64,000 nt of DNA from Gammaproteobacteria bacterium (GTDB lineage Bacteria > Pseudomonadota > Gammaproteobacteria > UBA4575): contig CBDCUI010000008.1 in the NCBI GenBank assembly GCA_965222615.1, forward strand, positions 834,222 through 898,221, in the 5' to 3' direction. Of this stretch, positions 6,107 through 25,124 are shown one piece after another. The notes under the pieces are model-generated. The model worked only from the letters and a program-made list of their open reading frames with translations, was not told the DNA's origin and did not search any database. Positions within the stretch are counted from its first letter, which is position 1. Every line of letters begins with the position of its first letter. The translations under genes and the position numbers were made by a program.

Positions 6107-6119
6107 TAGGTGAATACCA

Positions 6120-8821: not shown

Positions 8822-9577
8822 TTGAAACTTACCACTTTGCTATTTGATATAGATGGCACACTTGCAGAAACTGAAGAAAATCATCGCAAATCGTTTAATT
8901 TAGCTTTTCAGCAGGCGGGGTTAAACTGGTCTTGGTCAAGATCGTTATACTGTAATTTACTGTCTATTGCTGGCGGTAAGGAACGTATTCGTTATTTCGT
9001 AGACCAATACTCTCCAGACTTTGTAAAGCCGAAAAATTTAACTGGCTTCATAGCTGATCTACATGCAAACAAAACAAAAATATATTATCAGTTGTTGAAA
9101 CAAGGCTGTGTGCCATTACGACCAGGTGTAAGGCGCATAATACAGGAGGCACGCCAAACTGGGATTCGCTTAGGTATTGTTACGACAACTACACCAAAAA
9201 ATGTTTCAATTTTGCTACAAAGAAGTCTTACACCAGATTCACCGAGCTGGTTTGATGTAATCGCAGCAGGTAGTGTAGTTCCTAGAAAAAAACCTGCACC
9301 TGATATTTATCTTTATGCATTACAGCAACTAAATGAAAATCCCCAATCATGTCTGGCAATCGAAGATTCGGAAAATGGATTACATTCAGCAGTGCAAGCA
9401 GGATTGAAAACTATTATAACGGTAAGCGAGTACTCACAAGGGCAAAATTTTAGTGAAGCGGTTTTAACTGTCGATCATTTGGGTGAACCAGATCTACCAT
9501 CTACTGCGATCAAAGGGGCTTTGAATGAAAATTCTTATGTCGATCTTACCTTGTTAATGAATATCTGTAAGAATTGA
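8822..9577 (+). CDS. cbbY: HAD-family hydrolase, CbbY-like (xylulose-1,5-bisphosphate phosphatase family); TTG start
   Basis: 251 aa; HAD motif I LLFDIDGTLAETE, motif IV IEDSENGLHSAVQAGL; position at the 3' end of the cbb operon. Confidence 0.8.
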   Translation: MKLTTLLFDIDGTLAETEENHRKSFNLAFQQAGLNWSWSRSLYCNLLSIAGGKERIRYFVDQYSPDFVKPKNLTGFIADLHANKTKIYYQLLKQGCVPLRPGVRRIIQEARQTGIRLGIVTTTTPKNVSILLQRSLTPDSPSWFDVIAAGSVVPRKKPAPDIYLYALQQLNENPQSCLAIEDSENGLHSAVQAGLKTIITVSEYSQGQNFSEAVLTVDHLGEPDLPSTAIKGALNENSYVDLTLLMNICKN

Positions 9578-9909
9578 TGATTGCAATATTCGTATGCATT
9601 AGCTTATTTGAATACGTGAAGATTCGTAACTATTGTCTTTAATACTATCGTTAAAAATGTAACTAACTGAATTGAATGTAGTAATGATAGTAATGAATAT
9701 GATGTATGCATTTTTAATTACACTTTATAAGGCTCTTCGGCAAAGCTGAGAATATAAGAAATACCTAGCTAGGTGCCCTAATAATTCAAAATCCGTCACA
9801 TATCGGCGAATCTGTCAGTATTTTTCCTAAATTTCTAAGACTTGTGGTCGAAATCTTAATGCGGATAAGTACGCATTTTAGATTATCAACACTACAAGGA
9901 TGTTTAATC

Positions 9910-12900
9910 ATGGCGATTTTTGATGCTTTTAAACAGTGGACAGAAAAAGTTTTAGATAAAGTCCAATCGAACGATGAAAAAATTTTAGAAGAGTTATATC
10001 AGGACCAGATAAATTCTGATTTTCCAAGAGAAGAGCTGTTTAAGCAGAATATTTTTATGGGTGACACAACCCGTGCCGAGCGCGTTGGTGAAGAGGTGGC
10101 TTCTGAAGAAACTTCTGCTAGTGTAGATGAAGGTATTAAACCAAGAGAAATTCAGTCTAATACGTTTAATAATTCTGAAGCAGGCCATGACAATGTTCCT
10201 GAATTTTCAGAATTAAATCGTACTACAAACTCAAATAATAATTTTGAGTCAAGCAATAACATACAATCTTTTTCTAACAACGGCTTCGTGTCACCTAGTG
10301 ACTTAAATAGTGATACTCAACTAAATCCAGTTTCTGCACTTCTTAATGAATACGATTCGCCATTTACCACTGATGGTATAAGTCAGGGTATTGAACCTAA
10401 TCCTGGTGGTAATGCTCCATCCAACTCTAATATAAGTCCTGTCGTTGATGCCAATGTATCAGACAATATCGTTAGCGAAAGCGCCCCAGTGGGTGCAGTT
10501 ATAGGTGTTACTGCTTTCGCTTTTGATAGTGACGGCAGTGACAGTGTGAGTTACAGCTTAGCGAGTGGCAGCTTGGATAACGATGCGTTTGCGATCGATG
10601 CGGTCACGGGTGAAGTGACGGTTGCGGATGCGAGTGCGCTGGACTTTGAGAATGATGCGTTGATGCAAATCGAAGTGACGGCGACGAGTACGGATGGTTC
10701 GAGCGGTACGCAAGTGTTCAACATCGCGATCACGGATGACACGAGTGAATTTAGCATTGGTGCGGTGAGTGATGTGGATGCGAGTGCGAACAGTGTGAGT
10801 GAAAGTGCGAATGTGGGTGACGTGGTGGGGGTAACCGCGTTTGCCGAAGACTTGGATGGCAGTGACAGTGTGAGTTACAGCTTAGCGAGTGGCAGCTTGG
10901 ATAACGATGCGTTTGCGATCGATGCGGTCACGGGTGAAGTGACGGTTGCGGATGCGAGTGCGCTGGACTTTGAGAATGATGCGTTGATGCAAATCGAAGT
11001 GACGGCGACGAGTACGGATGGTTCGAGCGGTACGCAAGTGTTCAACATCGCGATCACGGATGACACGAGTGAATTTAGCATTGGTGCGGTGAGTGATGTG
11101 GATGCGAGTGCGAACAGTGTGAGTGAAAGTGCGAATGTGGGTGACGTGGTGGGGGTAACCGCGTTTGCCGAAGACTTGGATGGCAGTGACAGTGTGAGTT
11201 ACAGCTTAGCGAGTGGCAGCTTGGATAACGATGCGTTTGCGATCGATGCGGTCACGGGTGAAGTGACGGTTGCGGATGCGAGTGCGCTGGACTTTGAGAA
11301 TGATGCGTTGATGCAAATCGAAGTGACGGCGACGAGTACGGATGGTTCGAGCGGTACGCAAGTGTTCAACATCGCGATCACGGATGACACGAGTGAATTT
11401 AGCATTGGTGCGGTGAGTGATGTGGATGCGAGTGCGAACAGTGTGAGTGAAAGTGCGAATGTGGGTGACGTGGTGGGGGTAACCGCGTTTGCCGAAGACT
11501 TGGATGGCAGTGACAGTGTGAGTTACAGCTTAGCGAGTGGCAGCTTGGATAACGATGCGTTTGCGATCGATGCGGTCACGGGTGAAGTGACGGTTGCGGA
11601 TGCGAGTGCGCTGGACTTTGAGAATGATGCGTTGATGCAAATCGAAGTGACGGCGACGAGTACGGATGGTTCGAGCGGTACGCAAGTGTTCAACATCGCG
11701 ATCACGGATGACACGAGTGAATTTAGCATTGGTGCGGTGAGTGATGTGGATGCGAGTGCGAACAGTGTGAGTGAAAGTGCGAATGTGGGTGACGTGGTGG
11801 GGGTAACCGCGTTTGCCGAAGACTTGGATGGCAGTGACAGTGTGAGTTACAGCTTAGCGAGTGGCAGCTTGGATAACGATGCGTTTGCGATCGATGCGGT
11901 CACGGGTGAAGTGACGGTTGCGGATGCGAGTGCGCTGGACTTTGAGAATGATGCGTTGATGCAAATCGAAGTGACGGCGACGAGTACGGATGGTTCGAGC
12001 AGTACGCAAGTGTTCAACATCGCGATCACGGATGACACGAGTGAATTTAGCATTGGTGCGGTGAGTGATGTGGATGCGAGTGCGAACAGTGTGAGTGAAA
12101 GTGCGAATGTGGGTGACGTGGTGGGGGTAACCGCGTTTGCCGAAGACTTGGATGGCAGTGACAGTGTGAGTTACAGCTTAGCGAGTGGCAGCTTGGATAA
12201 CGATGCGTTTGCGATCGATGCGGTCACGGGTGAAGTGACGGTTGCGGATGCGAGTGCGCTGGACTTTGAGAATGATGCGTTGATGCAAATCGAAGTGACG
12301 GCGACGAGTACGGATGGTTCGAGCGGTACGCAAGTGTTCAACATCGCGATCACGGATGACACGAGTGAATTTAGCATTGGTGCGGTGAGTGATGTGGATG
12401 CGAGTGCGAACAGTGTGAGTGAAAGTGCGAATGTGGGTGACGTGGTGGGGGTAACCGCGTTTGCCGAAGACTTGGATGGCAGTGACAGTGTGAGTTACAG
12501 CTTAGCGAGTGGCAGCTTGGATAACGATGCGTTTGCGATCGATGCGGTCACGGGTGAAGTGACGGTTGCGGATGCGAGTGCGCTGGACTTTGAGAATGAT
12601 GCGTTGATGCAAATCGAAGTGACGGCGACGAGTACGGATGGTTCGAGCGGTACGCAAGTGTTCAACATCGCGATCACGGATGACACGAGTGAATTTAGCA
12701 TTGGTGCGGTGAGTGATGTGGATGCGAGTGCGAACAGTGTGAGTGAAAGTGCGAATGTGGGTGACGTGGTGGGGGTAACCGCGTTTGCCGAAGACTTGGA
12801 TGGCAGTGACAGTGTGAGTTACAGCTTAGCGAGTGGCAGCTTGGATAACGATGCGTTTGCGATCGATGCGGTCACGGGTGAAGTGACGGTTGCGGATGCG

Positions 12901-15717
12901 AGTGCGCTGGACTTTGAGAATGATGCGTTGATGCAAATCGAAGTGACGGCGACGAGTACGGATGGTTCGAGCGGTACGCAAGTGTTCAACATCGCGATCA
13001 CGGATGACACGAGTGAATTTAGCATTGGTGCGGTGAGTGATGTGGATGCGAGTGCGAACAGTGTGAGTGAAAGTGCGAATGTGGGTGACGTGGTGGGGGT
13101 AACCGCGTTTGCCGAAGACTTGGATGGCAGTGACAGTGTGAGTTACAGCTTAGCGAGTGGCAGCTTGGATAACGATGCGTTTGCGATCGATGCGGTCACG
13201 GGTGAAGTGACGGTTGCGGATGCGAGTGCGCTGGACTTTGAGAATGATGCGTTGATGCAAATCGAAGTGACGGCGACGAGTACGGATGGTTCGAGCGGTA
13301 CGCAAGTGTTCAACATCGCGATCACGGATGACACGAGTGAATTTAGCATTGGTGCGGTGAGTGATGTGGATGCGAGTGCGAACAGTGTGAGTGAAAGTGC
13401 GAATGTGGGTGACGTGGTGGGGGTAACCGCGTTTGCCGAAGACTTGGATGGCAGTGACAGTGTGAGTTACAGCTTAGCGAGTGGCAGCTTGGATAACGAT
13501 GCGTTTGCGATCGATGCGGTCACGGGTGAAGTGACGGTTGCGGATGCGAGTGCGCTGGACTTTGAGAATGATGCGTTGATGCAAATCGAAGTGACGGCGA
13601 CGAGTACGGATGGTTCGAGCGGTACGCAAGTGTTCAACATCGCGATCACGGATGACACGAGTGAATTTAGCATTGGTGCGGTGAGTGATGTGGATGCGAG
13701 TGCGAACAGTGTGAGTGAAAGTGCGAATGTGGGTGACGTGGTGGGGGTAACCGCGTTTGCCGAAGACTTGGATGGCAGTGACAGTGTGAGTTACAGCTTA
13801 GCGAGTGGCAGCTTGGATAACGATGCGTTTGCGATCGATGCGGTCACGGGTGAAGTGACGGTTGCGGATGCGAGTGCGCTGGACTTTGAGAATGATGCGT
13901 TGATGCAAATCGAAGTGACGGCGACGAGTACGGATGGTTCGAGCAGTACGCAAGTGTTCAACATCGCGATCGAAGATGTTAATGAAGGTGCAACAGTATT
14001 GACTGCCAATGTCACCGGAAATGAAGACACAGCAATACCGCTTAATATTCAAGTAACTGATGTCGAACCGGGTGCAAATGTATCGGTGACGATAACAGGT
14101 GTCCCAAATGGTGCAGTGCTATCTGCGGGTACAGATAATGGAACTGGTAGTTGGACACTTAGTCAGTCAGATTTAACGGGCTTGACATTAACTCCTGCAG
14201 GAAATAGCGACGCTGATTTTGTGTTATCTGTGCAAACGGATGTTACAGAGAATAGTGTAACACAGTCTTATACAAATACATTTAATGTAACAGTAGATGC
14301 TGTAGCGGATGCGCCGATATTAGTGGGACCTAACACGATTACTCAATATCAAAATCCTACCTATAACTTTGAAAATGGTTTAGGAAATTGGGACATACTT
14401 GGAGATATAGTGAACCCAGGTGGGTACCAAGGACAATCTCCTACAGAAGGTTCAAAGATGGCACGAATGCGAGCTCAAGGTGCTACAGATTCTCAATTAG
14501 AAAGTGAATTAGGCATATCAAGCGGTAGTTTAGATGCAATTTCAACTGGGGATGCGCAAGATGGGTCTTCAATGCAGACCGCAATTGCTGTTAAAGAAGG
14601 TGATGTAATTACTTTTGATTGGAATTTTTATAATGCAGAAAATGCTGGTGATATCGCCAGTGGATATAATGATTTTGCAATTGCAAGCATCAATGGAACT
14701 CCTCAGGTTCTTTCACAGTCGTCGGATTTTGGGAATCCGGGAGCAACTGGATGGCAAATGTTTACGTTTACAGCAATACAAGATGGTGTATTGGATCTTG
14801 GCTTTGCGGTAGTTAATACAAACGATAGTAATAAAGATTCAAGTTTGTTAGTAGACAATTTGCAAATCAATGGAAATATAATTGATACTCGTCCGGTAGA
14901 TTTAAACTTGACCATTGCATTAAGCGATGCAGATGGTTCTGAGTCGCTAGCAATTGAAGTATCTGGTGTGCCGACTGATGCAAGTCTAAGTGCAGGTACT
15001 GATTTAGGCGGTGGAATTTGGTCTATAGATCCTGCTGATGTTGATGGCTTACAGTTAATTCCTTCTGCAACTACATCAGGAACTGTTTCGCTTACGATAT
15101 CTGCGACATCAACCGAGGCTAATGGTGGTGATTCTAGTACCGTGTCACAAACTATCGATGTGGAATTTGAAACTCTCGACGGGCCCATCTTTGGAACACT
15201 AGGGACAGATAATATTACCGGTACAGCGAATGATGATGTGATCGTTGCACGCGCTGGAAATGACACAGTCTCTGGTGGGGCTGGTGATGATTTAATTATG
15301 GGCGGCGATGGTAACGACACACTTAACGGTGATGCTGGCGATGACCAACTCTATGGTGGTGCTGGTAATGATTCCTTAAACGGTGGTGCAGGGAATGATG
15401 TCATGATTGGCGGTGCCGGAAATGATGTCGCTGTAGGTGGTGCAGGTGATGATGTATATATTTTTGAAGCGCTGGGCGATAGTGACTCATTTAGTGGCGG
15501 GAATGGTGGTGGTTGGACTGATGCGATTAGTCTTGATGTAGATATCTCATCATTACCTGATCCATCGGATCCATGGACGATTACTGTAAGCGGCAGTGAG
15601 GTTAGCTATGACGTTGCACTTGGATATTTAGACCTTGGTGCGGATGCTTCTGGTTCGATTACCTTTGATGATGGTAGTGAAATCAATTTCGATGGAATCG
15701 AACAAATTAATTGGTAA
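9910..15717 (+). CDS. giant T1SS-secreted cadherin-like RTX adhesin (1936 aa from Met 9910; ORF opens at 9844)
   Basis: N-terminal region, then 11 x 108-aa cadherin-like repeats (FAIDAVTGEVTV...FNIAITDD), two Ig-like 'GSESL...NSDADF' modules, a beta-sandwich domain, GGxGxDxxx nonapeptide repeats (15180-15480), and C-terminal ...DGSEINFDGIEQINW secretion signal. Confidence 0.9.
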   Translation: MAIFDAFKQWTEKVLDKVQSNDEKILEELYQDQINSDFPREELFKQNIFMGDTTRAERVGEEVASEETSASVDEGIKPREIQSNTFNNSEAGHDNVPEFSELNRTTNSNNNFESSNNIQSFSNNGFVSPSDLNSDTQLNPVSALLNEYDSPFTTDGISQGIEPNPGGNAPSNSNISPVVDANVSDNIVSESAPVGAVIGVTAFAFDSDGSDSVSYSLASGSLDNDAFAIDAVTGEVTVADASALDFENDALMQIEVTATSTDGSSGTQVFNIAITDDTSEFSIGAVSDVDASANSVSESANVGDVVGVTAFAEDLDGSDSVSYSLASGSLDNDAFAIDAVTGEVTVADASALDFENDALMQIEVTATSTDGSSGTQVFNIAITDDTSEFSIGAVSDVDASANSVSESANVGDVVGVTAFAEDLDGSDSVSYSLASGSLDNDAFAIDAVTGEVTVADASALDFENDALMQIEVTATSTDGSSGTQVFNIAITDDTSEFSIGAVSDVDASANSVSESANVGDVVGVTAFAEDLDGSDSVSYSLASGSLDNDAFAIDAVTGEVTVADASALDFENDALMQIEVTATSTDGSSGTQVFNIAITDDTSEFSIGAVSDVDASANSVSESANVGDVVGVTAFAEDLDGSDSVSYSLASGSLDNDAFAIDAVTGEVTVADASALDFENDALMQIEVTATSTDGSSSTQVFNIAITDDTSEFSIGAVSDVDASANSVSESANVGDVVGVTAFAEDLDGSDSVSYSLASGSLDNDAFAIDAVTGEVTVADASALDFENDALMQIEVTATSTDGSSGTQVFNIAITDDTSEFSIGAVSDVDASANSVSESANVGDVVGVTAFAEDLDGSDSVSYSLASGSLDNDAFAIDAVTGEVTVADASALDFENDALMQIEVTATSTDGSSGTQVFNIAITDDTSEFSIGAVSDVDASANSVSESANVGDVVGVTAFAEDLDGSDSVSYSLASGSLDNDAFAIDAVTGEVTVADASALDFENDALMQIEVTATSTDGSSGTQVFNIAITDDTSEFSIGAVSDVDASANSVSESANVGDVVGVTAFAEDLDGSDSVSYSLASGSLDNDAFAIDAVTGEVTVADASALDFENDALMQIEVTATSTDGSSGTQVFNIAITDDTSEFSIGAVSDVDASANSVSESANVGDVVGVTAFAEDLDGSDSVSYSLASGSLDNDAFAIDAVTGEVTVADASALDFENDALMQIEVTATSTDGSSGTQVFNIAITDDTSEFSIGAVSDVDASANSVSESANVGDVVGVTAFAEDLDGSDSVSYSLASGSLDNDAFAIDAVTGEVTVADASALDFENDALMQIEVTATSTDGSSSTQVFNIAIEDVNEGATVLTANVTGNEDTAIPLNIQVTDVEPGANVSVTITGVPNGAVLSAGTDNGTGSWTLSQSDLTGLTLTPAGNSDADFVLSVQTDVTENSVTQSYTNTFNVTVDAVADAPILVGPNTITQYQNPTYNFENGLGNWDILGDIVNPGGYQGQSPTEGSKMARMRAQGATDSQLESELGISSGSLDAISTGDAQDGSSMQTAIAVKEGDVITFDWNFYNAENAGDIASGYNDFAIASINGTPQVLSQSSDFGNPGATGWQMFTFTAIQDGVLDLGFAVVNTNDSNKDSSLLVDNLQINGNIIDTRPVDLNLTIALSDADGSESLAIEVSGVPTDASLSAGTDLGGGIWSIDPADVDGLQLIPSATTSGTVSLTISATSTEANGGDSSTVSQTIDVEFETLDGPIFGTLGTDNITGTANDDVIVARAGNDTVSGGAGDDLIMGGDGNDTLNGDAGDDQLYGGAGNDSLNGGAGNDVMIGGAGNDVAVGGAGDDVYIFEALGDSDSFSGGNGGGWTDAISLDVDISSLPDPSDPWTITVSGSEVSYDVALGYLDLGADASGSITFDDGSEINFDGIEQINW
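10447..14010 (+). repeat. in-frame tandem array, 324-bp unit x 11 (first and last units diverged at outer ends); internal units identical except one G/A (SSGTQ/SSSTQ) in units 5 and 11
   Basis: Perfect periodicity of the antisense pseudo-ORFs every 324 nt (10551, 10875 ... 13791); direct reading of lines 10531-13970. Confidence 0.95.
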
Positions 15718-15896: not shown

Positions 15897-18800
15897 ATGG
15901 CTATTAATGATAAGGACGTCAATATTAAAAATGTTGTGATGAATGAGGATTCATCGGCTTTTGATGCAAGGAAAAAGGAAATACCTGAAGCCGAAGATCA
16001 ATCTTCAAATTTTCCAAAGGAAGAATTATTTAAACAAAATATCCAAATGGGTGATACAGATCGCCTCATTGATGAAGACCTTTCTTTGCAAAGTGAGTCT
16101 AGAACTAATCAGGTTGATCAAACTGCGAAAGACTCTGGCCCTAATCTAGTTGAGCAAGGACAAGCAGAAAATAATTATGCGAATATTGCCGATAGTGATG
16201 TAGTAAATTTAAGTAATTCAGTTTCAAGTGGTGGCGATAGCAACTATAGCAATCCTTCATCTGTTATCAAACCGGCGTCTTTACAAAATAGTCAAGCATC
16301 TCAAGTAGAAAAAACTAATGAAGATCAAGCACAATCATCGAACCAAGCGGTATTTGAAAGTCCTTCGCATGGTTCGCCAGACCTTGGTTCTGGCATTAAT
16401 GCTGGGCAATCAGAGTCTGTAGATAATCAAGCAAGTGCACCTGAGTTAATAGTAAGTAATGCAACGGGTGATGAAGATAGTGCAATCGCACTGGATATCA
16501 ATGCAGCGCTTACCGATACAGACGGCTCAGAAAGCTTAGTCGTTGAAGTGCAAGATATTCCAAATGGAGCAGTACTGTCTGATGGGGTAAATAGTTTTAC
16601 AGCGACCTCGTCGGAAACCACTGCTGACATAACTGGATGGAACTTTGATTCACTTACAATAACACCTGCCGAAAATAGCGATGCAGATTTTGATCTCGCC
16701 GTACAAGCTACTTCTACAGAACATTCCAATAACGATGTTTCTACAAGTAATGCCACATTGAGTGTCAATGTTAATTCGATTAACGATGCTCCAGATTCGG
16801 TTAGTCTTGATGGTAATGCTGTGGTTGAAAATGGTTCAGGAATTGTTATTGGCACCTTATCAACAAGTGATGTTGATGCAGGGGATGTGCATAGCTATAG
16901 CGTTTCAGATTCACGATTTGAAGTGATTGATGGAAAGCTTCAACTCAAAGCAGGAATATCACTAGATTACGAAAAAGAGCAAGCTATTGAACTCGATATT
17001 ACTTCTACTGATTCACATGGTGCTTCATTTACACAAACATTTTCTATTGATGTAAAAGATGCTGTTGAACAAATCGTGGGTACTAACAATGCCGATTATT
17101 TAAAAGGTGGAATAGGTAGTGACGATATTATTGCTTTGGATGGTAACGATGTTGTTGTTGCTGGGGATGGTAATGATAGGGTTGATGGTGGTGCCGGAAA
17201 CGATCGCCTATATGGTCAAGCCGGTGACGATAACCTCATCGGTGGAGATGGAAATGATAGTTTATATGGCCAAGCTGGCGATGATCAGTTATCCGGTGGT
17301 GCTGGTAATGATGTGTTAAATGGCGGTGCGGGTGAAAACGTATTAGACGGTGGTGACGGTGCAGATCGTTTGTATGGACATCAAGGTGGCACCGATGAGA
17401 TTAAAGGAGGTGCGGGCGATGATTACATTTATATGGATGGTAATGACCGCGTCGATGGTGGTGATGGTTTTGATCGGGTGTATACATATGGTGAAGAAGA
17501 TGTATCGATAGATATGGGTGAAGCGAATGTGGAGCAAGTGATTGCTTATAGCGATGCGGATCACAATATTGATGCGAGTAGTGCGGATCAGGGTGTGTAT
17601 GCACGTGGACGTGGGGGCGATGATGAGATCAAAGGTTCGGATCATGCCGATCGTTTGTTTGGTGGGGAGGGTGAGAACGTATTAGACGGTGGTGACGGTG
17701 CAGATCGTTTGTATGGACATCAAGGTGGCACCGATGAGATTAAAGGAGGTGCGGGCGATGATTACATTTATATGGATGGTAATGACCGCGTCGATGGTGG
17801 TGATGGTTTTGATCGGGTGTATACATATGGTGAAGAAGATGTATCGATAGATATGGGTGAAGCGAATGTGGAGCAAGTGATTGCTTATAGCGATGCGGAT
17901 CACAATATTGATGCGAGTAGTGCGGATCAGGGTGTGTATGCACGTGGACGTGGGGGCGATGATGAGATCAAAGGTTCGGATCATGCCGATCGTTTGTTTG
18001 GTGGGGAGGGTGAGAACGTATTAGACGGTGGTGACGGTGCAGATCGTTTGTATGGACATCAAGGTGGCACCGATGAGATTAAAGGAGGTGCGGGCGATGA
18101 TTACATTTATATGGATGGTAATGACCGCGTCGATGGTGGTGATGGTTTTGATCGGGTGTATACATATGGTGAAGAAGATGTATCGATAGATATGGGTGAA
18201 GCGAATGTGGAGCAAGTGATTGCTTATAGCGATGCGGATCACAATATTGATGCGAGTAGTGCGGATCAGGGTGTGTATGCACGTGGACGTGGGGGCGATG
18301 ATGAGATCAAAGGTTCGGATCATGCCGATCGTTTGTTTGGTGGGGAGGGTGAGAACGTATTAGACGGTGGTGACGGTGCAGATCGTTTGTATGGACATCA
18401 AGGTGGCACCGATGAGATTAAAGGAGGTGCGGGCGATGATTACATTTATATGGATGGTAATGACCGCGTCGATGGTGGTGATGGTTTTGATCGGGTGTAT
18501 ACATATGGTGAAGAAGATGTATCGATAGATATGGGTGAAGCGAATGTGGAGCAAGTGATTGCTTATAGCGATGCGGATCACAATATTGATGCGAGTAGTG
18601 CGGATCAGGGTGTGTATGCACGTGGACGTGGGGGCGATGATGAGATCAAAGGTTCGGATCATGCCGATCGTTTGTTTGGTGGGGAGGGTGAGAACGTATT
18701 AGACGGTGGTGACGGTGCAGATCGTTTGTATGGACATCAAGGTGGCACCGATGAGATTAAAGGAGGTGCGGGCGATGATTACATTTATATGGATGGTAAT

Positions 18801-19406
18801 GACCGCGTCGATGGTGGTGATGGTTTTGATCGGGTGTATACATATGGTGAAGAAGATGTATCGATAGATATGGGTGAAGCGAATGTGGAGCAAGTGATTG
18901 CTTATAGCGATGCGGATCACAATATTGATGCGAGTAGTGCGGATCAGGGTGTGTATGCACGTGGACGTGGGGGCGATGATGAGATCAAAGGTTCGGATCA
19001 TGCCGATCGTTTGTTTGGTGGGGAGGGTGACGACCAGTTAGTCGGAGGTGGTGGTAATGATCGTCTCTATGGTCAAGATGACGATGACATTTTTGTTGTA
19101 GGGGATGGTAGTGATGTTGTGTATGGTGGTGACGGTAGTGATTTATTTATTTTGGACGCGTTGGATGGTAACGACACATTCCACGGCGGCAATGGCAATG
19201 GTTGGTCAGATATTATCGATATTAATGTTTCACCATCCGATACCGGTGATAGTGATAACCCTTGGTCCATTGAAGTAAATGGTGAGCAGGTGCAATTTGA
19301 CTTGGCTGACGGGGGAATCGATGTTGGTCCGGATGCAACCGGCGTGATTTCTTTTGCGGATGGTAGCGAAGTTGCTTTTGATGGGGTGGAGCAGATTCAG
19401 TGGTAG
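15897..19406 (+). CDS. large T1SS-secreted RTX-repeat protein (1169 aa) with cadherin-like domain and 5 identical 113-aa RTX blocks
   Basis: N-terminal motif shared with upstream giant protein; Ig-like GSESL...NSDADF module; cadherin-like domain (16790-17060); GGxGxD repeats; C-terminal ...DGSEVAFDGVEQIQW homologous to upstream protein. Confidence 0.9.
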   Translation: MAINDKDVNIKNVVMNEDSSAFDARKKEIPEAEDQSSNFPKEELFKQNIQMGDTDRLIDEDLSLQSESRTNQVDQTAKDSGPNLVEQGQAENNYANIADSDVVNLSNSVSSGGDSNYSNPSSVIKPASLQNSQASQVEKTNEDQAQSSNQAVFESPSHGSPDLGSGINAGQSESVDNQASAPELIVSNATGDEDSAIALDINAALTDTDGSESLVVEVQDIPNGAVLSDGVNSFTATSSETTADITGWNFDSLTITPAENSDADFDLAVQATSTEHSNNDVSTSNATLSVNVNSINDAPDSVSLDGNAVVENGSGIVIGTLSTSDVDAGDVHSYSVSDSRFEVIDGKLQLKAGISLDYEKEQAIELDITSTDSHGASFTQTFSIDVKDAVEQIVGTNNADYLKGGIGSDDIIALDGNDVVVAGDGNDRVDGGAGNDRLYGQAGDDNLIGGDGNDSLYGQAGDDQLSGGAGNDVLNGGAGENVLDGGDGADRLYGHQGGTDEIKGGAGDDYIYMDGNDRVDGGDGFDRVYTYGEEDVSIDMGEANVEQVIAYSDADHNIDASSADQGVYARGRGGDDEIKGSDHADRLFGGEGENVLDGGDGADRLYGHQGGTDEIKGGAGDDYIYMDGNDRVDGGDGFDRVYTYGEEDVSIDMGEANVEQVIAYSDADHNIDASSADQGVYARGRGGDDEIKGSDHADRLFGGEGENVLDGGDGADRLYGHQGGTDEIKGGAGDDYIYMDGNDRVDGGDGFDRVYTYGEEDVSIDMGEANVEQVIAYSDADHNIDASSADQGVYARGRGGDDEIKGSDHADRLFGGEGENVLDGGDGADRLYGHQGGTDEIKGGAGDDYIYMDGNDRVDGGDGFDRVYTYGEEDVSIDMGEANVEQVIAYSDADHNIDASSADQGVYARGRGGDDEIKGSDHADRLFGGEGENVLDGGDGADRLYGHQGGTDEIKGGAGDDYIYMDGNDRVDGGDGFDRVYTYGEEDVSIDMGEANVEQVIAYSDADHNIDASSADQGVYARGRGGDDEIKGSDHADRLFGGEGDDQLVGGGGNDRLYGQDDDDIFVVGDGSDVVYGGDGSDLFILDALDGNDTFHGGNGNGWSDIIDINVSPSDTGDSDNPWSIEVNGEQVQFDLADGGIDVGPDATGVISFADGSEVAFDGVEQIQW
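17331..19025 (+). repeat. in-frame tandem array, 339-bp unit x 5, copies identical at nucleotide level (first codon 3 gaa vs gag)
   Basis: Unit GENVLDGGDGADRLYGHQGGTDEIKGG...GSDHADRLFGGE repeats at 17331, 17670, 18009, 18348, 18687; antisense pseudo-ORFs recur every 339 nt. Confidence 0.95.
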
Positions 19407-19817: not shown

Positions 19818-21578
19818 ATGGATTCGTCGACCTTGACGGAAGAGTTATCCACAGATAATGCTTCTGAATTTAAACATCGACTACCTACAGCATGGAAGCG
19901 ATGGGATGTTTTGTTGGCGTCGTTGATTATCAACTTGGCTACACTGACATTGCCCATTGTTATTTTACAAGTCTATGACCGTATATTGCCTAATCAAGCA
20001 GTTGATACATTCACTCTTTTAATATTCGGTTTGTTAATTGCTGCAATATTAGATGGTGTACTTAGAGTAACACGCTCAGCAATCCTTACCTGGAAAGGTG
20101 TTCAATACGAACATACGGAAAGTATTCACGCAATAGAAAGAGTTGTTCATTCTGATTTAGTTAAGTTTGAAAGTAATTCAATTGGATCGTACTTGGACAA
20201 AATGGAAAGTCTCAAGAAGGTTAGAGAGTTTTATTCTGGACAATCTATATTGATGTTAGTGGATTTGCCCTTTGTTTTGGTTTTTTTAAGTTTAATTTTT
20301 GTGTTTGCAGGTGAAATGGTACTAATACCAATAACAATGATCATGATTTTTGTTGTAATTTCGTATTTCACAGGTAGGCAATTAAAAAAAGCGTTAGAGG
20401 AAAGATCTTCTGCAGATCAACGCAGACAAAATTTTCTTATCGAAACATTGCAAGGCATTCACACCGTAAAGGCAATGGCAATGGAAGCGCTAATGCTGCG
20501 CAGATACGAAAGATTGCAATCTCAATCTGCAGCAAGTGTTTATCAAGTGAGCCGCATAAACAGCATTGTTTCAGGATTGGGTGCTACATTTTCACAAATA
20601 GTTATGATCAGTTTTGTTGGCATAGGAAGTATATATGTGATCTCAGGGGATTTAACTATAGGCGCACTAGCGGCTGGCACGATGTTATCGGGCAGGGTGT
20701 TACAACCTGCTTTAAAGGCAATGGGACTTTGGACACAGTTACAAGCTGTATATATTGCGGGTGAAAAAGTAAACGACGTTCTGTCTTTACCACTTGAGGC
20801 ATTGAAAGAGCATCCTCGACCCATCATTTTAAAGGGTGGAGTTGAAATAAGAGATGTACATTTTCAACATGAAGGCAGCAAAACTGAATTATTATCTGGA
20901 GTGTCATTAAATATTAAACCCGGTGAGGCAATAGGAATCATTGGAGCAAATGGAGTAGGTAAAACTACGTTGATAAATTTAATTATGGGATTTGTTAATC
21001 CTACCAAAGGAGAAGTTTTATTAGACGGTCAAAATATTAAAACACTGGACGGTTCTTCAGTTCGTGCACAAATTGCCTTGATGCCGCAACAAGGTACTAT
21101 TTATGACGGTACGATTTTGGATAATTTAACCTTATTTCGTGAAGGTGAAGCAATTGACCAAGCGATTAAACTTACTAATTTACTTGGTTTAACCAAGGCA
21201 ATTAATAAACTTCCTAATGGCTTAGATACTCGAATTGGTGGTGCAAATGCAGATGCTATGCCTGCAGGAATCCGCCAACAAATCATTCTTGCGCGTTCAA
21301 TGATTGGTGATCCTGAATTTGGTGAACCAAAAATTATCTTATTCGATGATGCAAACTCTTGTTTAGATTTTGAAAATGAAGCTCGATTACATTCGTTTTT
21401 AGAGAACAATCGAAAAAATCGCACTTTACTAATTATTTCACATCGTCCATCTCTGCTAGCTATATGCGACCGACACTTTGAATTAAAACAGGGGAAATTA
21501 CACAGTAGAAGTATAAAGTTTAGTGAAAGTAATATGCTTGAGTCTTCATCAGGTTTCGATAACGTTGTGAATCAGTAA
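19818..21578 (+). CDS. T1SS ABC transporter subunit (TMD+NBD, no N-terminal C39/CLD domain); degenerate signature (MPAGIRQQ) and Walker B (ILFDDA)
   Basis: 586 aa; six-helix exporter TMD, Walker A GANGVGKTT, Q-loop MPQQ, H-loop ISHR. Confidence 0.85.
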   Translation: MDSSTLTEELSTDNASEFKHRLPTAWKRWDVLLASLIINLATLTLPIVILQVYDRILPNQAVDTFTLLIFGLLIAAILDGVLRVTRSAILTWKGVQYEHTESIHAIERVVHSDLVKFESNSIGSYLDKMESLKKVREFYSGQSILMLVDLPFVLVFLSLIFVFAGEMVLIPITMIMIFVVISYFTGRQLKKALEERSSADQRRQNFLIETLQGIHTVKAMAMEALMLRRYERLQSQSAASVYQVSRINSIVSGLGATFSQIVMISFVGIGSIYVISGDLTIGALAAGTMLSGRVLQPALKAMGLWTQLQAVYIAGEKVNDVLSLPLEALKEHPRPIILKGGVEIRDVHFQHEGSKTELLSGVSLNIKPGEAIGIIGANGVGKTTLINLIMGFVNPTKGEVLLDGQNIKTLDGSSVRAQIALMPQQGTIYDGTILDNLTLFREGEAIDQAIKLTNLLGLTKAINKLPNGLDTRIGGANADAMPAGIRQQIILARSMIGDPEFGEPKIILFDDANSCLDFENEARLHSFLENNRKNRTLLIISHRPSLLAICDRHFELKQGKLHSRSIKFSESNMLESSSGFDNVVNQ

Positions 21579-21582: not shown

Positions 21583-23772
21583 ATGAGCGTAACTGCAGAA
21601 GATTTCAGTAATTTTGAAAAGGAAGAACAACTTCCTCTATCTGAGCGTTTAGCGAATGCTATACGCTATGGTAAGTATCAAGAGGTTGATAAAATTTCAC
21701 CTTATGCCGCCTGTATCATACCTATACTTACTGAGTTGGGTTGGCGTTCTTATAAACGTGAACTCATCGAGGCGATACCTCACTTCGCAGATCATTTAGA
21801 TCTCGTCGATCTACGCAATATGCTCGTTACTTTAGGTTATGAAAGTGACGAAAAGAAAACTACTGTAAAAAAAATTAGTCCAGCACTTACTCCATGTTTG
21901 TTTGTATCTAAGAAGGGGGATGTTTATGTAATCACAGAAAAAACCAAAGATTCGATTACCTACTATGATGCAACAAAAAGAAATTATTGTTCGAATGATA
22001 TCTCATATGAAAAAGGAACGGCTTACTTTTTCACCGATATGCACCCAACACATGCAATGACAGGCCAAGAGCAAAGCGGTGAACAATGGTTTTCACAAGT
22101 CTTAAAGCGATTTAAAAAGTTAGTCAAACATTTATTTGCGATGACATTTATTTTAAATATTATCGCATTACTGGTGCCACTGTTTATTATGGTGGTATAC
22201 GACAATGTAATTGGAGCAGGCACAACAAAAAGTGTCCCGTACTTAATGGTTGGTATATGCATTGCATTAGCATGTGAGCTTATTTTTAGATTAGTTCGCT
22301 CAAAAACACTTGGTCTGCTTGCAGGGCGCTTAGATTATATAATTGGTGTAGAAACATTTAAGAAAATTCTATCTCTGCCTCCATTACTTACCGAACGCTC
22401 AACAGTTATCTCACAACTTTCTAGGCTAAGGCAGTTTGAATCCATACGAGAATTTTTTACTGGCCCAAGCGCTGCTTTATTTTTGGAATTACCCTTTGTA
22501 TTTTTGTTTGTCATTTTGCTAGCAATTTTAGGAGGGAGTATTGCACTGGTGCCTATTGCAATGATAATCATCTATGTAATTTTTGGGTTTTTTTGGTTTC
22601 CAAATATTAATAAAAAACTTATCCATGCAGGACATGCACGATCTGCACGTCAGCGTATGTTAATGGAGACTTTTTCAGGTCTGCGTGAGCTTAAATCTTT
22701 AGGGGCTGAAGGTGCTTGGCTGGAGCTATGCAGAGAAGCTTCAGGTGAAGCCATGACGCGAACCTATAAAACCACCACCAGTCATGCAGTTATTAACAGT
22801 ATGGCGCAATCATTGATGACCCTTGCAGGGATATCTGTTCTGGCGATTGGAACATTAAAGGTAATGCACGGGGACATGACTATTGGCGCTTTAATAGCTG
22901 TAATGGCTTTAATCTGGCGTGTGTTATCGCCATTGCAGGGTGTGTGTCTTGCGATGTTACAAATCGATCAAATTACGCAAAGTATCAAACAGCTGAATCA
23001 ACTCATGCGCGTACCTTCAGAAACCAATAGTTATAAAGCTGGGTTATTGATGCCAAAGATATCAGGAAAAATCACATTAGACCGAGTGACATTTCGCTAT
23101 GGTCCAAACGAAAATCCTGCTTTAGTCGGTGCATCATTTACGATTAATCCAGGCGAATTTGTAGCTATTGTAGGCGGTAATGGCTCTGGAAAATCTACGG
23201 TATTAAAGCTAATTGCTGGAATGTATCGCGCACAGGCAGGTTTGCTTGCTATCGATGATACCGATGTGAGGCAATTAAATGCGATTGATTTGCGCCGAGT
23301 AATTGCTTACATGCCGCAAAAACCAAGCCTGTTTTATGGAACGATTACGCAAAATATTCGAATGAATCAGCCCTTAGCGACGGATGACCAAATAGAGCTG
23401 GCAGCACGTCAAGCTGGAATTTTCGCATCTATCCAGCGATTACCTGACGGGTTTGACACCCTTGTTGGTGACCACACAACTTCACGCTTACCGTCCGGTT
23501 TGGTACACGGAATTTGTTTGGCACGTGCCTATGTTCGCCAAGCGCCAATTTTTTTGCTAGATGAACCAGGAACCTCGCTCGATACAGTTACAGATAAAAA
23601 TTTAATCGAGCACTTAAATAAGACACGTGGAAACCAGACAGTACTAATGGTTAGCCATCGTCCATCACATATAAAACTTGCAGATCGTGCAATTGTAATG
23701 GTTAACGGTATGGTTGCACATGTTGGGACACCTGATGAAGCAGTTAAATACTTAACGGAGATGCAAAGATGA
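21583..23772 (+). CDS. T1SS ABC transporter subunit with N-terminal C39-like domain (HlyB-like); degenerate signature (LPSGLVHG), consensus Walker A/B
   Basis: 729 aa; about 160-aa N-terminal domain, TMD, Walker A GGNGSGKST, Walker B IFLLDEPGTSLD, H-loop VSHR. Confidence 0.85.
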   Translation: MSVTAEDFSNFEKEEQLPLSERLANAIRYGKYQEVDKISPYAACIIPILTELGWRSYKRELIEAIPHFADHLDLVDLRNMLVTLGYESDEKKTTVKKISPALTPCLFVSKKGDVYVITEKTKDSITYYDATKRNYCSNDISYEKGTAYFFTDMHPTHAMTGQEQSGEQWFSQVLKRFKKLVKHLFAMTFILNIIALLVPLFIMVVYDNVIGAGTTKSVPYLMVGICIALACELIFRLVRSKTLGLLAGRLDYIIGVETFKKILSLPPLLTERSTVISQLSRLRQFESIREFFTGPSAALFLELPFVFLFVILLAILGGSIALVPIAMIIIYVIFGFFWFPNINKKLIHAGHARSARQRMLMETFSGLRELKSLGAEGAWLELCREASGEAMTRTYKTTTSHAVINSMAQSLMTLAGISVLAIGTLKVMHGDMTIGALIAVMALIWRVLSPLQGVCLAMLQIDQITQSIKQLNQLMRVPSETNSYKAGLLMPKISGKITLDRVTFRYGPNENPALVGASFTINPGEFVAIVGGNGSGKSTVLKLIAGMYRAQAGLLAIDDTDVRQLNAIDLRRVIAYMPQKPSLFYGTITQNIRMNQPLATDDQIELAARQAGIFASIQRLPDGFDTLVGDHTTSRLPSGLVHGICLARAYVRQAPIFLLDEPGTSLDTVTDKNLIEHLNKTRGNQTVLMVSHRPSHIKLADRAIVMVNGMVAHVGTPDEAVKYLTEMQR

Positions 23773-25124
23773 CGCAGGAAAGCATGTCTTTATCTAATAC
23801 AGTTAAAACAGAAGTACCACGTGCAAGAGCTCGGTTTATTGCTCAATCGATTCAATTAGAAGAATCAGATGCGCCAGGTGTTGTAAGTATTGGAATATTA
23901 ACGACTGCTATTCTCTGCCTAGCTGCAGTATTTTGGGCTTACTTCACTCCTGTTAATGAAGTCGCGATCACTCAAGGCGAGGTTGTTCCCAGTGGATATA
24001 ATCATGTAGTACAACATTTAGAAGGTGGGATAGTAAAAGAGATACGAGTAAGTGATGGAGAATTCGTTAATGAGGGGGATGTGCTAATTCGCATAGCACC
24101 ATCAGCAACCAAATCAGACTTGCAGCAAATACAGGCCCGCTATGCGATTTTAAAACTGCAATTAACACGTCTTAATGCAATATTAAGTGGTGATCAACCT
24201 GATTTTGAAAACTATCAAAATACTTATCCTGAATTAGTAGCAAGTGAAAAAGAAATTTACTATGCACAGCTTAAAAGTCATCAATCACAAATTAAAGTAG
24301 CTAAAACTAAAATTAGTCAGCGTTATGAAGAACTGGAACGAGAAAAAAGTAAAGCTAGTTATTTGAAGAGGGAGTTGAATGTGCTACAACAACAAGCTGC
24401 AATGCGGGAGGGTTTAGTAAGCCGTGGTTTGGTATCGAGAGCAGAATATCTTGATCGAAAGGTGGAATTAGCTGAAACCGAGACTCAATATCAACAAACA
24501 CTATCCAATATTAATGTAGCCAGTGAGGCAAGAAGGGAAGCGCATCAGTCATTAATTGATTTGGAAAATCGTTTACAAGAATCAATACAATTGGAAATAG
24601 GCAAAGTGTCTGGTGAATTGGCGGAGTTGGATGAGAATTTAATCAAGTATGAGGATCGAGTCAATCGTTTAGAATTAACCGCCCCAGTTTCCGGTGTAGT
24701 AAAAGGTTTAGTTGTAAATACTATTCAAAGTGTAATTAAACCGGGTGAAACAATTATGGAGATTGTGCCTGCTGGCGATGAATTAATTGTCGAAACTAAA
24801 ATCAATACATCAGATATTGGCCATGTCTATACCGGTCAAGAGGCAGAAATTAAAGTCAATAGCTATGATCCCCAACGTTTTGGAACGGTATCAGGAGAAG
24901 TAAAACAAATTAGTGCATCTACATTCTTAGATGAGGAGAGACAGCCCTATTATCGTGCAAAGATAGCTTTACAAAAACATTATATTGGCAACAATCCAAA
25001 TCGATACCAAGTTATACCTGGAATGACAGTTCAGGCAGATATTAAAACAGGTGAAAAATCCGTTCTGGATTACTTATTGAAACCTATTTACCGCGGGTTT
25101 CAAAATGCGTTTCAAGAAAGATAA
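23769..25124 (+). CDS. HlyD-family T1SS periplasmic adaptor (membrane fusion protein)
   Basis: 451 aa; N-terminal TM, long coiled-coil, C-terminal beta-barrel; start overlaps the ABC stop (ATGA). Confidence 0.88.
   Translation: MTQESMSLSNTVKTEVPRARARFIAQSIQLEESDAPGVVSIGILTTAILCLAAVFWAYFTPVNEVAITQGEVVPSGYNHVVQHLEGGIVKEIRVSDGEFVNEGDVLIRIAPSATKSDLQQIQARYAILKLQLTRLNAILSGDQPDFENYQNTYPELVASEKEIYYAQLKSHQSQIKVAKTKISQRYEELEREKSKASYLKRELNVLQQQAAMREGLVSRGLVSRAEYLDRKVELAETETQYQQTLSNINVASEARREAHQSLIDLENRLQESIQLEIGKVSGELAELDENLIKYEDRVNRLELTAPVSGVVKGLVVNTIQSVIKPGETIMEIVPAGDELIVETKINTSDIGHVYTGQEAEIKVNSYDPQRFGTVSGEVKQISASTFLDEERQPYYRAKIALQKHYIGNNPNRYQVIPGMTVQADIKTGEKSVLDYLLKPIYRGFQNAFQER

What the first reader, a model, noticed from the sequence alone, without database searches (positions are those of the whole stretch)
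10531..13970. Repeat cassettes have foreign composition inside otherwise native genes
The repeated modules of both giant genes (10531-13970 and 17331-19025) are about 53-55% GC. Their coding strand is very G-rich and C-poor, with almost exclusive use of GTG, GCG, ACG, GAT and GGT codons. The N- and C-terminal parts of the same ORFs use the AT-rich host codon pattern (AAT, ATT, TCA, GCA), and the genome background is about 40% GC. The transition is abrupt at the array edges. This points to a repeat unit acquired or invented from a different compositional background and then amplified. Alternatively, the sequence is selected at the DNA level, for example for recombination or to avoid secondary structure. 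Both genes share the same bias, although their repeats are unrelated in sequence (cadherin-like versus RTX block).
Basis: seen in the sequence. Interest (0 to 1): 0.6.

Follow-up and report, generated by a model that had tools for sequence, protein, structure and literature searches.

The report
GC-shifted silent codons in adhesin repeats
A giant secreted adhesin gene carries about ten identical copies of a cadherin-like module whose silent codon positions are far more G/C-rich than the rest of the gene and genome, and comparison with relatives ties this to being a tandemly homogenised repeat rather than to imported DNA.

Summary
It is 10.6 x 324 bp, and the interior copies are 100% identical. 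GC is 0.54 and GC3 0.59, against 0.27 +/- 0.03 for 40 host ORFs. A single unit lies z = 8 above the GC3 expected from its amino acids and host codon usage. The N- and C-terminal parts of the same ORF are host-like (GC3 0.26), and both edges are sharp to the codon.

Its GC and G-skew come from Gly/Asp-rich RTX amino acids (GC1 0.71), and its synonymous codon usage is native.

The foreign-donor reading is not supported.
- The locus is chromosomal and syntenic in more than 10 relatives.
- Orthologous arrays keep the same G-ending codon set although flanking genes are saturated at synonymous sites.
- In 59 loci from diverse bacteria, excess GC3 is almost always upward and scales with repeat homogeneity (rho 0.55-0.64).
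- In ortholog L083 the window's unit type is single-copy and host-like (GC3 0.20), while a different, amplified cadherin type is GC3-rich (0.74).

Best explanation: a weak-to-strong (A/T to G/C) fixation bias tied to repeat homogenisation. It may be GC-biased conversion or selection multiplied by copy number. The mechanism is inferred, not shown.

The parts
9910..15717 (+). Gene A: T1SS-type RTX adhesin, 1935 aa from the ATG at 9910 (AAGGA 9 nt upstream). The mechanical ORF starts at GTG 9844.
   Evidence: ORF. Translation. Pfam Cadherin x11 (3e-90) and HemolysinCabind x5. Start region.
10429..10530 (+). Diverged left-edge partial cadherin copy. It is protein-homologous to the first 34 codons of the unit but uses host-like codons, and it is orthologous to the single first domain of L083.
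   Evidence: 48 of the first 102 nt differ from the unit consensus. Sequence. L083 comparison.
10531..13971 (+). Array A: 10.6 copies of a 324-bp (108-aa) cadherin unit. Interior copies are 100% identical. GC 0.54, GC3 0.59, G-ending 4-fold codons.
13972..15717 (+). C-terminal part of gene A (ligand-binding-type modules, RTX nonapeptides, secretion end) with host-like GC3 of 0.26. It is 75.6% aa identical to L003.
15897..19406 (+). Gene B: second RTX protein, 1169 aa.
16788..17060 (+). Single-copy cadherin domain in gene B with GC3 0.154. The same domain type is the amplified, GC3-rich unit in ortholog L083.
17330..19030 (+). Array B: 5.0 copies of a 339-bp RTX block, 99% identical. GC 0.48 and skew 0.5 are explained by Gly/Asp-rich composition. 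Codon usage is native.
19818..21578 (+). T1SS ABC transporter 1 (586 aa).
   Evidence: Pfam ABC_membrane and ABC_tran. 79-82% aa identical to L006/L003.
21583..23772 (+). T1SS ABC transporter 2 (729 aa), named a peptidase-domain-containing ABC transporter in homologues.
23769..25124 (+). HlyD-family membrane-fusion protein (451 aa).

Best explanation
Array A is the extender region of a type-1-secreted RTX adhesin. It consists of about ten cadherin-type modules kept identical by unequal recombination or gene conversion between repeats. Its unusual composition is not a donor signature but a property of the homogenised state. While a unit lineage lives as a tandem, recombining array, weak-to-strong (A/T to G/C) changes at silent sites, and weakly at replacement sites, are fixed preferentially. 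This pushes GC3 about 1.4 logit units above the host's AT-biased equilibrium. The most likely agent is GC-biased gene conversion during repeat-repeat recombination. Edge copies and single-copy paralogous domains do not take part and stay at host composition, which produces the razor-sharp edges.

Shown: the anatomy, the synonymous anomaly, its conservation in orthologues, the dose-response with homogeneity, and the reciprocal single-copy/amplified contrast.

Inferred: that recombination is the homogenising process, that a fixation bias (rather than mutation) drives the shift, and why G is chosen over C.

Array B's GC and skew are simply the amino-acid composition of RTX repeats.
For: - The anomaly is synonymous and confined to the identical copies.
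- Orthologous arrays in L003 and L005/L006 have GC3 0.53-0.60 against local background 0.24-0.29, and use the same codon set: GCG, ACG, GTG, AGY, GGT, GAT, GAA. Their flanking genes are 73-83% aa identical to the window's.
- Conserved 4-fold sites in those flanking orthologues match at 0.26-0.39, equal to the saturation expectation of 0.30-0.32. The bias has therefore been maintained, not inherited passively.
- Across 59 loci, excess GC3 correlates with adjacent-copy identity: rho 0.62-0.64, p about 1e-7. The mean logit shift is 0.92, 0.61 and 0.18 for identity >=0.8, 0.65-0.8 and <0.65. It is positive in 16/17 of the most homogeneous arrays. Array GC3 tracks host GC3 (r 0.87), as a constant fixation bias on top of host mutation predicts.
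- The correlation is robust to using aa identity (rho 0.55) and to excluding the window's clade (rho 0.45-0.63).
- Within genes, GC3 rises with a repeat's identity to its closest sibling in 27/34 loci, Wilcoxon p = 1.4e-4.
- Natural experiment. In L083 the window's unit type is single-copy with GC3 0.20, and a different amplified type has GC3 0.74. That second type is single-copy in the window's gene B with GC3 0.15. An isolated domain in L085 has GC3 0.23.
- GC2 rises and FYMINK residues fall with homogeneity (t 3.7 and -2.5), as expected for a drive that ignores codon position.
- The array codons are not those of the likely highly expressed genes (RuBisCO, flagellin, tkt, fba).
- Precedents: GC rises with recombination in bacteria (Lassalle 2015, PMC4450053). 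MpAFP has the same anatomy, 100% identical repeats flanked by diverged edge repeats, which its authors attribute to unequal recombination (PMC3492233).
Against: - The bias is strand-asymmetric and codon-specific, not a plain A/T-to-G/C shift. At conserved 4-fold sites G is 0.72-0.77 but C only 0.07-0.09. GAA, CAA, GAT, AGT and GGT stay W-ending.
- Some equally homogeneous arrays show little shift: array B, the B-type array in L084, and the 99%-identical copies in L045 with GC3 0.35.
- The evidence is correlational. No polarised substitutions were counted, loci are not phylogenetically independent, and background genes were called by a simple ORF rule.
- In the close family, unit GC3 is about 0.6 whatever the host GC3 (0.24-0.45). 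A mobile cassette would also give this.
- GC-biased conversion in bacteria is itself still debated.
Confidence: 0.5

Rival explanations
1. Selection on a DNA or RNA property of the repeat acts on silent sites and is made effective because any variant spread through the array has its effect multiplied by copy number. Candidate properties are fewer A/T homopolymer slippage sites, fewer self-complementary hairpins, resistance to premature Rho termination, or resistance to RNase E on a very long mRNA.
For: This rival gives the same dose-response and natural-experiment predictions as the best explanation. The codon-specific, strand-asymmetric pattern (G rather than C, AGY rather than TCN) fits selection better than symmetric conversion. 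Choosing G only keeps the single-stranded DNA folding energy at the host-recoded level (-37.6 vs -37.5), whereas a G/C-balanced version would fold more strongly (-48.6 +/- 3.9, z = 2.8). A G-rich, C-poor transcript is the opposite of a Rho loading site (own knowledge).
Against: RNA structure is not avoided: the unit folds more stably than host-recoded versions (-106.9 vs -92.3 +/- 5.4, z = -2.7). The codons are not the host's high-expression set. In alpha- and betaproteobacterial and planctomycete arrays the enriched base is C, not G, so no single strand-specific property generalises. No direct test of slippage, Rho or RNase E was possible.
Confidence: 0.25
2. Foreign cassette: the unit, or the central part of the adhesin gene, was imported from a lineage with higher GC and different codon usage, recombined into a native cadherin domain, and then amplified.
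For: The junctions are sharp and fall inside a native domain. In the close family, unit GC3 is about 0.6 irrespective of host GC3. Unit-to-unit 4-fold identity (0.57-0.79) is somewhat above the composition expectation (0.39-0.60, n about 30). A 38-base stretch (35 of the 38 positions specified in the search pattern) is shared with L001 and L082, whose T1SS is only 55-61% identical. The codon set resembles that of mid-GC gammaproteobacteria (own knowledge).
Against: No donor was found in 185,579 species genomes, 5.8 billion proteins or JGI metagenomes. The best matches are equally AT-rich relatives. The locus is syntenic, with no tRNA or mobility genes seen. The trait is shared by orthologues diverged beyond synonymous saturation. 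Deviations are upward in 16/17 homogeneous arrays, including GC-rich hosts. The reciprocal pattern in L083 and L085 would need separate imports into the same gene.
Confidence: 0.1
3. Reverse causation: GC-rich (or G/T-rich) units are simply better substrates for homologous pairing or unequal crossing-over. They are therefore the ones that get amplified and stay homogeneous, without any shift after amplification.
For: It predicts the same cross-locus correlation. In L083 a different, GC-rich domain is the amplified one.
Against: It does not say where a GC3 0.6-0.74 domain comes from in a genome whose single-copy domains of the same families have GC3 0.15-0.23. Intermediate arrays have intermediate GC3, which suggests gradual gain or loss rather than pre-selection.
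Confidence: 0.1
4. Amino-acid composition alone: codons for Gly, Ala, Asp, Glu and Val all start with G, so an acidic, small-residue repeat looks GC-rich and G-skewed without any codon anomaly.
For: This is the correct explanation for array B: GC1 0.71, GC 0.481 vs 0.455 expected, skew 0.509 vs 0.457 expected, synonymous log-likelihood z = +0.6. It accounts for about one third of the GC rise in array A, since the expected GC is 0.433 against a background of 0.38.
Against: For array A, GC3 is z = 8 above the composition-based expectation and skew is 0.406 vs 0.215 +/- 0.046.
Confidence: 0.03

Closest known systems
MpAFP/MpIBP region II of Marinomonas primoryensis, and RTX adhesin extender regions in general (PMC3492233, PMC4083281, PMC7493085)
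   Same: A giant T1SS-secreted RTX adhesin. [quoted passage not shown] The authors attribute it to recent unequal recombination. The window's gene A has the same anatomy.
   Different: The module is a Pfam Cadherin (PF00028) domain rather than the MpAFP Ig-like repeat, and there are about 10 copies rather than about 120. The composition of the MpAFP repeats was not examined here, and I found no report of it.
GC-biased gene conversion in bacteria (Lassalle et al. 2015, PMC4450053)
   Same: GC3 is raised in proportion to evidence of recombination, independently of optimal-codon selection and against an AT-biased mutation pressure. Here GC3 excess scales with repeat homogenisation and is not the high-expression codon set.
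   Different: That work concerns recombination between genomes of a population. Here the recombining partners would be repeats inside one gene. The window's pattern is strand-asymmetric (G much greater than C), which simple conversion bias does not predict.
GC enrichment of concertedly evolving multigene families in eukaryotes, such as histones and rDNA (own knowledge: Galtier 2003; Escobar et al. 2011)
   Same: Sequences homogenised by gene conversion drift to higher GC than single-copy relatives.
   Different: These are eukaryotic, meiotic and intergenic or multigene. I found no bacterial intragenic counterpart described.
Compositionally atypical giant repeat genes (SeqWord, PMC2528017; Reva and Tummler 2008)
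   Same: Giant bacterial genes with multiple repeated elements are a recognised class of atypical oligonucleotide usage, distinct from horizontally transferred islands.
   Different: That description is phenomenological. It does not separate amino-acid from synonymous effects or link the anomaly to repeat homogeneity.
Horizontally acquired genomic island with un-ameliorated composition (Lawrence and Ochman amelioration model, own knowledge)
   Same: A sharp compositional discontinuity and atypical codon usage.
   Different: The anomaly covers only the repeat block inside a native gene, lies in a conserved syntenic locus, persists across saturated divergence, and is always GC-upward.

Membership tests
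T1SS-secreted RTX adhesin | C-terminal RTX nonapeptide (GGxGxD) Ca-binding repeats | tested here: met
   Pfam HemolysinCabind: 5 stretches in A (2.7e-28) and 11 in B (3.3e-66).
T1SS-secreted RTX adhesin | Adjacent type-1 secretion genes (ABC transporter and HlyD-type membrane-fusion protein) | tested here: met
   Two ABC proteins and a HlyD-family protein at 19818-25124. The arrangement is conserved next to cadherin-RTX genes in many loci.
T1SS-secreted RTX adhesin | Central extender of tandem beta-sandwich (Ig/cadherin-like) modules | tested here: met
   Pfam Cadherin, 11 stretches, 3e-90. 10.6 tandem units.
T1SS-secreted RTX adhesin | N-terminal retention module with a LapG-type cleavage site, and an outer-membrane TolC partner | not tested
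   No Pfam hit in the N-terminal 200 aa. Only a motif shared by A and B was seen. No TolC gene was looked for.
Horizontally acquired island / foreign cassette | Atypical composition over the whole acquired segment, including its non-repeat parts | tested here: not met
   The N- and C-terminal parts of gene A, gene B and the T1SS genes are host-like.
Horizontally acquired island / foreign cassette | Patchy presence or absence from the syntenic site in relatives, with a mobility gene or tRNA at the border | tested here: not met
   The same gene order is found in L003, L006 and L083-L089. There is no tRNA in the window. Flanking genes are Calvin-cycle and signalling genes.
Horizontally acquired island / foreign cassette | An identifiable donor lineage in which the composition is native | tested here: not met
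   The best unit relatives (72-74% aa) are in equally AT-rich hosts, where the array again exceeds the host. The DNA-pattern scan of metagenomes gave one hit, which is another member of the same syntenic family.
GC-biased gene conversion tract | GC3 excess associated with recombination or homogenisation, within and between loci | tested here: met
   rho 0.55-0.64 across 59 loci, 27/34 loci positive within genes, and a graded dose-response.
GC-biased gene conversion tract | Independence from selection for optimal codons | tested here: met
   The array codons GCG, ACG, GTG and AGY are rare in RuBisCO, flagellin, tkt and fba of the same window. These were only assumed to be highly expressed.
GC-biased gene conversion tract | Effect on all site classes (also replacement sites) and symmetric for G and C | tested here: inconclusive
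   GC2 rises and FYMINK residues fall with homogeneity (t 3.7 and -2.5), but GC1 does not. In the window G is far greater than C at 4-fold sites, and several W-ending codons are retained.
GC-biased gene conversion tract | Excess of A/T-to-G/C over G/C-to-A/T fixations in polarised substitutions or allele-frequency spectra | not testable with these tools
   The copies are identical apart from one G>A. No population sample of this locus is available.

The most novel reading that the evidence does not exclude
Homogenised tandem arrays inside bacterial surface-protein genes may be natural reporters of a recombination-linked A/T-to-G/C drive. Silent-site GC rises in proportion to how strongly the repeats are homogenised, in hosts from 35% to 70% GC. 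The same domain reverts to host composition when single-copy. That would give a within-gene, expression-matched system for testing whether GC-biased gene conversion (or selection for GC) operates in bacteria. It would also mean that GC-rich repeat blocks in giant genes should not be read as horizontal transfer.
Probability: 0.4. Interest if true: 0.7.

Novelty: new member of a known kind. Interest (0 to 1): 0.5.

Why it matters
Taken as an object, this is an ordinary RTX adhesin locus. The value lies in two points.

First, it is a caution. A sharp, strongly atypical codon-usage block inside a gene is usually read as foreign DNA. Here it is not foreign, and half of the reported signal (array B) is just amino-acid composition.

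Second, it is a lead. The graded link between repeat homogeneity and silent-site GC, and the reciprocal single-copy/amplified contrast between orthologues, suggest that intragenic arrays experience a directional A/T-to-G/C force. What maintains GC against the universal AT-biased mutation in bacteria is an open question. Arrays compared with single-copy paralogous domains in the same transcript would be a clean test bed, because strand, expression and genomic location are all controlled.

Tried and rejected
- An exact-sequence look-up of the window's ABC1 protein found nothing. The window's genome is not in the collections, and the closest ABC2 homologue is 83% identical.
- I meant to use a housekeeping protein to name the host but queried ABC2 instead. 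The host remains an uncultured, AT-rich, RuBisCO-bearing, flagellated gammaproteobacterium.
- The protein search with one unit returned only short fragments at <=67% identity (one 47%-coverage fragment and a low-scoring local match reached 71-81% over part of the unit), from noisy assemblies.
- The metagenome scan with a 38-base pattern (35 specified bases, three N positions) gave a single hit, so it was of little use as a donor search.
- Avoidance of RNA secondary structure was rejected: the unit is more structured than host-recoded versions.
- Translational optimisation was rejected: the array codons are rare in likely highly expressed genes.
- A transcription-linked keto (G+T) skew as a general cause was rejected, because other lineages enrich C, not G.
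- Similarity to the E. coli or Haemophilus Chi sequence was checked by eye only. No match was found and it was not pursued.
- A confound was considered: nucleotide identity could be inflated by codon bias itself. The correlation holds with amino-acid identity.
- Literature searches for a prior report linking repeat homogeneity and GC3 in bacterial adhesins found none.
- Structure prediction was not used. The Pfam assignment was sufficient.
Full report
ANATOMY

The finding lies in a two-gene adhesin locus.
- Gene A (ATG 9910 to 15717; the mechanical ORF starts at 9844) has 11 Pfam Cadherin matches and C-terminal RTX nonapeptides.
- Gene B (15897-19406) is an RTX protein.
- Two ABC transporters and a HlyD-family protein follow at 19818-25124.

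Tandem Repeats Finder gives array A as 10534-13971, period 324, 10.6 copies, 99% matches. It gives array B as 17330-19030, period 339, 5.0 copies, 99% matches. Nine interior copies of A are identical base for base except one G>A (unit position 277). The leftmost copy is identical only from unit position about 103 (window 10531). The rightmost copy leaves the consensus at 13972.

CHECKING THE OBSERVATION

The window's GC is 0.29-0.46 per kb outside the two giant adhesin genes (9.9-19.4 kb), and 0.534-0.543 over 11-14 kb (0.458 in 10-11 kb, which holds the array start), with GC skew about 0.40 across 11-14 kb.

By codon position, array A has GC3 0.595. Forty other ORFs average 0.267 +/- 0.033 (max 0.351). 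The N- and C-terminal parts of gene A have 0.258 and 0.260.

Because the copies are identical, the real sample is one unit of 108 codons. Its GC3 is 0.589 against 0.258 +/- 0.042 expected from its amino acids and host codon usage, which is z = 8.0. Codon counts are Ala GCG 15/16, Thr ACG 8/9, Val GTG 10/13 and Ser AGT/AGC 16/17. Third-position A is 0.08 against 0.35 in the host.

Simulated recoding gives an expected GC of 0.433 +/- 0.014 (observed 0.54) and an expected skew of 0.215 +/- 0.046 (observed 0.406). Synonymous log-likelihood is 4.2 sd below size-matched host windows. Array A is therefore truly outside the host distribution, and the finding's own refutation criterion is not met for it.

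Array B is different.
- GC is 0.48, with GC1 0.71 and GC3 0.343, which is inside the host range.
- Per-unit z is 1.7.
- GC is 0.481 against 0.455 expected, and skew 0.509 against 0.457 expected.
- Synonymous log-likelihood is z = +0.6.
- Its GAT and GGT codons are the host's preferred ones.
- The compositional rise follows the Gly/Asp-rich RTX region (about 17100-19400), not the array edges.

B meets the refutation criterion, so the two genes do not share a synonymous bias.

RELATIVES

One unit finds only fragments at <=67% identity (one 47%-coverage fragment and a low-scoring local match reached 71-81% over part of the unit) in the protein collection. A scan of 185,579 species genomes with an alignment of units returned 79 loci.

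L003 (a 2.67-Mb gammaproteobacterial MAG chromosome) is a syntenic orthologue. Its identity to the window is 75.6% aa for the C-terminal part of A and 81-83% for ABC1, ABC2 and HlyD. L005 and L006 are two contig ends of another MAG, at 73-80%.

Further orthologous loci (L083-L089) share the downstream genes: response regulator, PAS/GAF kinase, NMT1, MotAB, PilZ and a glutamate-synthase-like gene. No tRNA is present in the window. Upstream lies a Calvin-cycle cluster and downstream lie flagellar genes. This is a stable chromosomal locus of an uncultured, AT-rich, autotrophic gammaproteobacterial clade, not an island.

THE ANOMALY IS CONSERVED, NOT IMPORTED

The arrays of L003 and L005/L006 are 318 bp and 99-100% identical. 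They have GC3 0.53-0.60 against local backgrounds of 0.24-0.29, and third-position A of 0.08-0.13. They use the same codon set as the window: GCG, ACG/ACC, GTG, GGT, AGY, GAT, GAA. The diverged repeats of L004 and L002 use host-like GCA, ACA and TCA.

Between the window and L003 or L006, conserved 4-fold sites in the flanking genes match at 0.26-0.39, which equals the saturation expectation of 0.30-0.32. These lineages separated long enough ago to randomise silent sites, yet all keep G at 0.7-0.77 of conserved 4-fold sites in the array. A single ancestral import would have ameliorated. Separate recent imports into the same gene are unparsimonious, and no donor was found.

A GENERAL, GRADED, UPWARD EFFECT

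For 59 loci with enough flanking sequence, I compared the GC3 of all cadherin repeats with the value expected from their amino acids and local background codon usage.
- The excess correlates with the median nucleotide identity of adjacent copies: Spearman 0.62-0.64, p about 1e-7.
- The mean logit shift is 0.92, 0.61 and 0.18 for identity >=0.8, 0.65-0.8 and <0.65.
- It is positive in 16/17 of the most homogeneous arrays.
- Array GC3 tracks host GC3 (r 0.87), as a roughly constant fixation bias added to each host's own equilibrium would predict.
- It holds when amino-acid identity is used instead (rho 0.55), when the window's clade is excluded (0.45-0.56), and more strongly in hosts with headroom (0.63-0.74).
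- Independent examples: Gilvimarinus japonicus has 31 copies at 99% identity, with GC3 0.88 against 0.54. Maribrevibacterium has 0.71 against 0.48.
- Inside genes, a repeat's GC3 rises with its identity to its closest sibling in 27/34 loci, p = 1.4e-4.
- GC2 rises and FYMINK residues fall slightly with homogeneity.

A NATURAL EXPERIMENT

In ortholog L083, the domain type that is amplified in the window is a single first domain (1063-1362) with GC3 0.20. It is orthologous to the window's host-like left partial copy. A different cadherin type straddles a 100-N scaffold gap, which marks a collapsed array, and has GC3 0.69-0.74. That second type is single-copy in the window's gene B (16788-17060), with GC3 0.154. 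In L085, an isolated domain of the window's family inside the same gene has GC3 0.23. GC-richness follows the amplified state, not the domain family.

MECHANISM

- Avoiding RNA structure is refuted. The unit folds at -106.9 kcal/mol against -92.3 +/- 5.4 for host-recoded versions.
- Translational optimisation is unlikely. RuBisCO, flagellin, transketolase and aldolase use GCA/GCT, ACA/ACT, GTT/GTA and TCN.
- A recombination-linked A/T-to-G/C fixation bias best fits the direction, the grading, the tracking of host GC and the sharp edges. This would be GC-biased conversion as proposed for bacteria by Lassalle et al. (PMC4450053).
- MpAFP shows the same identical-core, diverged-edge anatomy, which its authors attribute to unequal recombination (PMC3492233).

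The main difficulties are three. First, the window's pattern is codon-specific and strand-asymmetric: G is far greater than C, and GAA, GAT, AGT and GGT are retained. Second, other lineages enrich C instead. Third, B-type arrays and some 99%-identical copies show little shift.

Selection on a DNA or RNA property, multiplied by copy number, therefore remains a serious rival. One hint points that way: choosing G only keeps single-strand DNA self-pairing at the host level, whereas a G/C-balanced version would pair more (z = 2.8).

WHAT IS KNOWN

Giant repeat genes are already recognised as compositionally atypical and distinct from transferred islands (PMC2528017). I found no report linking repeat homogeneity to silent-site GC in bacterial adhesins.

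VERDICT

The locus is a new member of a known kind. The wider pattern is a testable lead of moderate interest.

Noticed in passing
window 10015-10065 (gene A) and 16005-16055 (gene B); L083 about 640-700: Genes A and B share a short N-terminal motif, FP(R/K)EELFKQNIxMGDT (21/42 identical, E 8e-9). It also occurs in the L083 orthologue (EEELFKQNILMGDTERSE). It has no Pfam match. It could be an N-terminal retention or recognition element of this T1SS substrate family.
   Followed up: partly
window 450-8192: A Calvin-cycle cluster lies directly upstream: form I RuBisCO large subunit, CbbX, transketolase, class II FBP aldolase and phosphoribulokinase. The host is therefore probably a chemo- or photoautotrophic gammaproteobacterium. 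The closest relatives are unnamed MAGs at about 80% aa identity.
   Followed up: partly
L001 2424-3224 vs 3225-10545; L003 5420-9747 vs 9747-10610: In two long-read assemblies the array is followed by its own reverse complement (a fold-back junction). This is probably an assembly or read artefact at identical repeats, but a real inverted duplication is not excluded.
   Followed up: no
window 19818-25124 and loci L002, L003, L006, L008, L014, L015, L017, L070, L082-L089: The cadherin-RTX gene is accompanied by the same trio (ABC of about 586 aa, ABC of about 729 aa, HlyD of 451 aa) across gamma- and alphaproteobacteria. This suggests a conserved T1SS with two ABC transporters dedicated to this adhesin family.
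   Followed up: partly
window 12001 (copy starting 11725) and 13945 (last copy): The only variant among the array copies (GGT>AGT, Gly>Ser, unit position 277) occurs in two non-adjacent copies. This is consistent with a duplication or conversion event spanning several units.
   Followed up: no
window 17330-19030; L038 4900-7261; L084 1036-2358; L088 1-849: The B-type RTX block (about 113 aa, ...RVYTYGEEDxSxxMGxANVE...) is also tandemly repeated at 98-99% identity in a distant Hyphomicrobiales MAG (L038). It is also tandemly repeated in clade relative L084 and present at the contig end in L088. Its GC3 shift is only small (+0.03 to +0.10). Why these arrays differ from the cadherin arrays is unexplained.
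   Followed up: partly
window 33969-35336: This ORF of 455 aa has the lowest GC in the window (0.31, GC2 0.26; the 34-35 kb bin has GC 0.285). It may be an AT-rich membrane protein or an acquired gene.
   Followed up: no
window 14703-15320 (- strand): A 205-aa antisense ORF lies inside the C-terminal part of gene A. It is probably a chance shadow ORF of the G-rich coding strand.
   Followed up: no
L083-L089, L004, L018, L039 and others (contig ends): Most short-read contigs of relatives end at, or collapse within, the array (a 100-N gap in L083). Copy numbers, and even the presence of such arrays, are therefore systematically under-reported in draft genomes and MAGs.
   Followed up: partly
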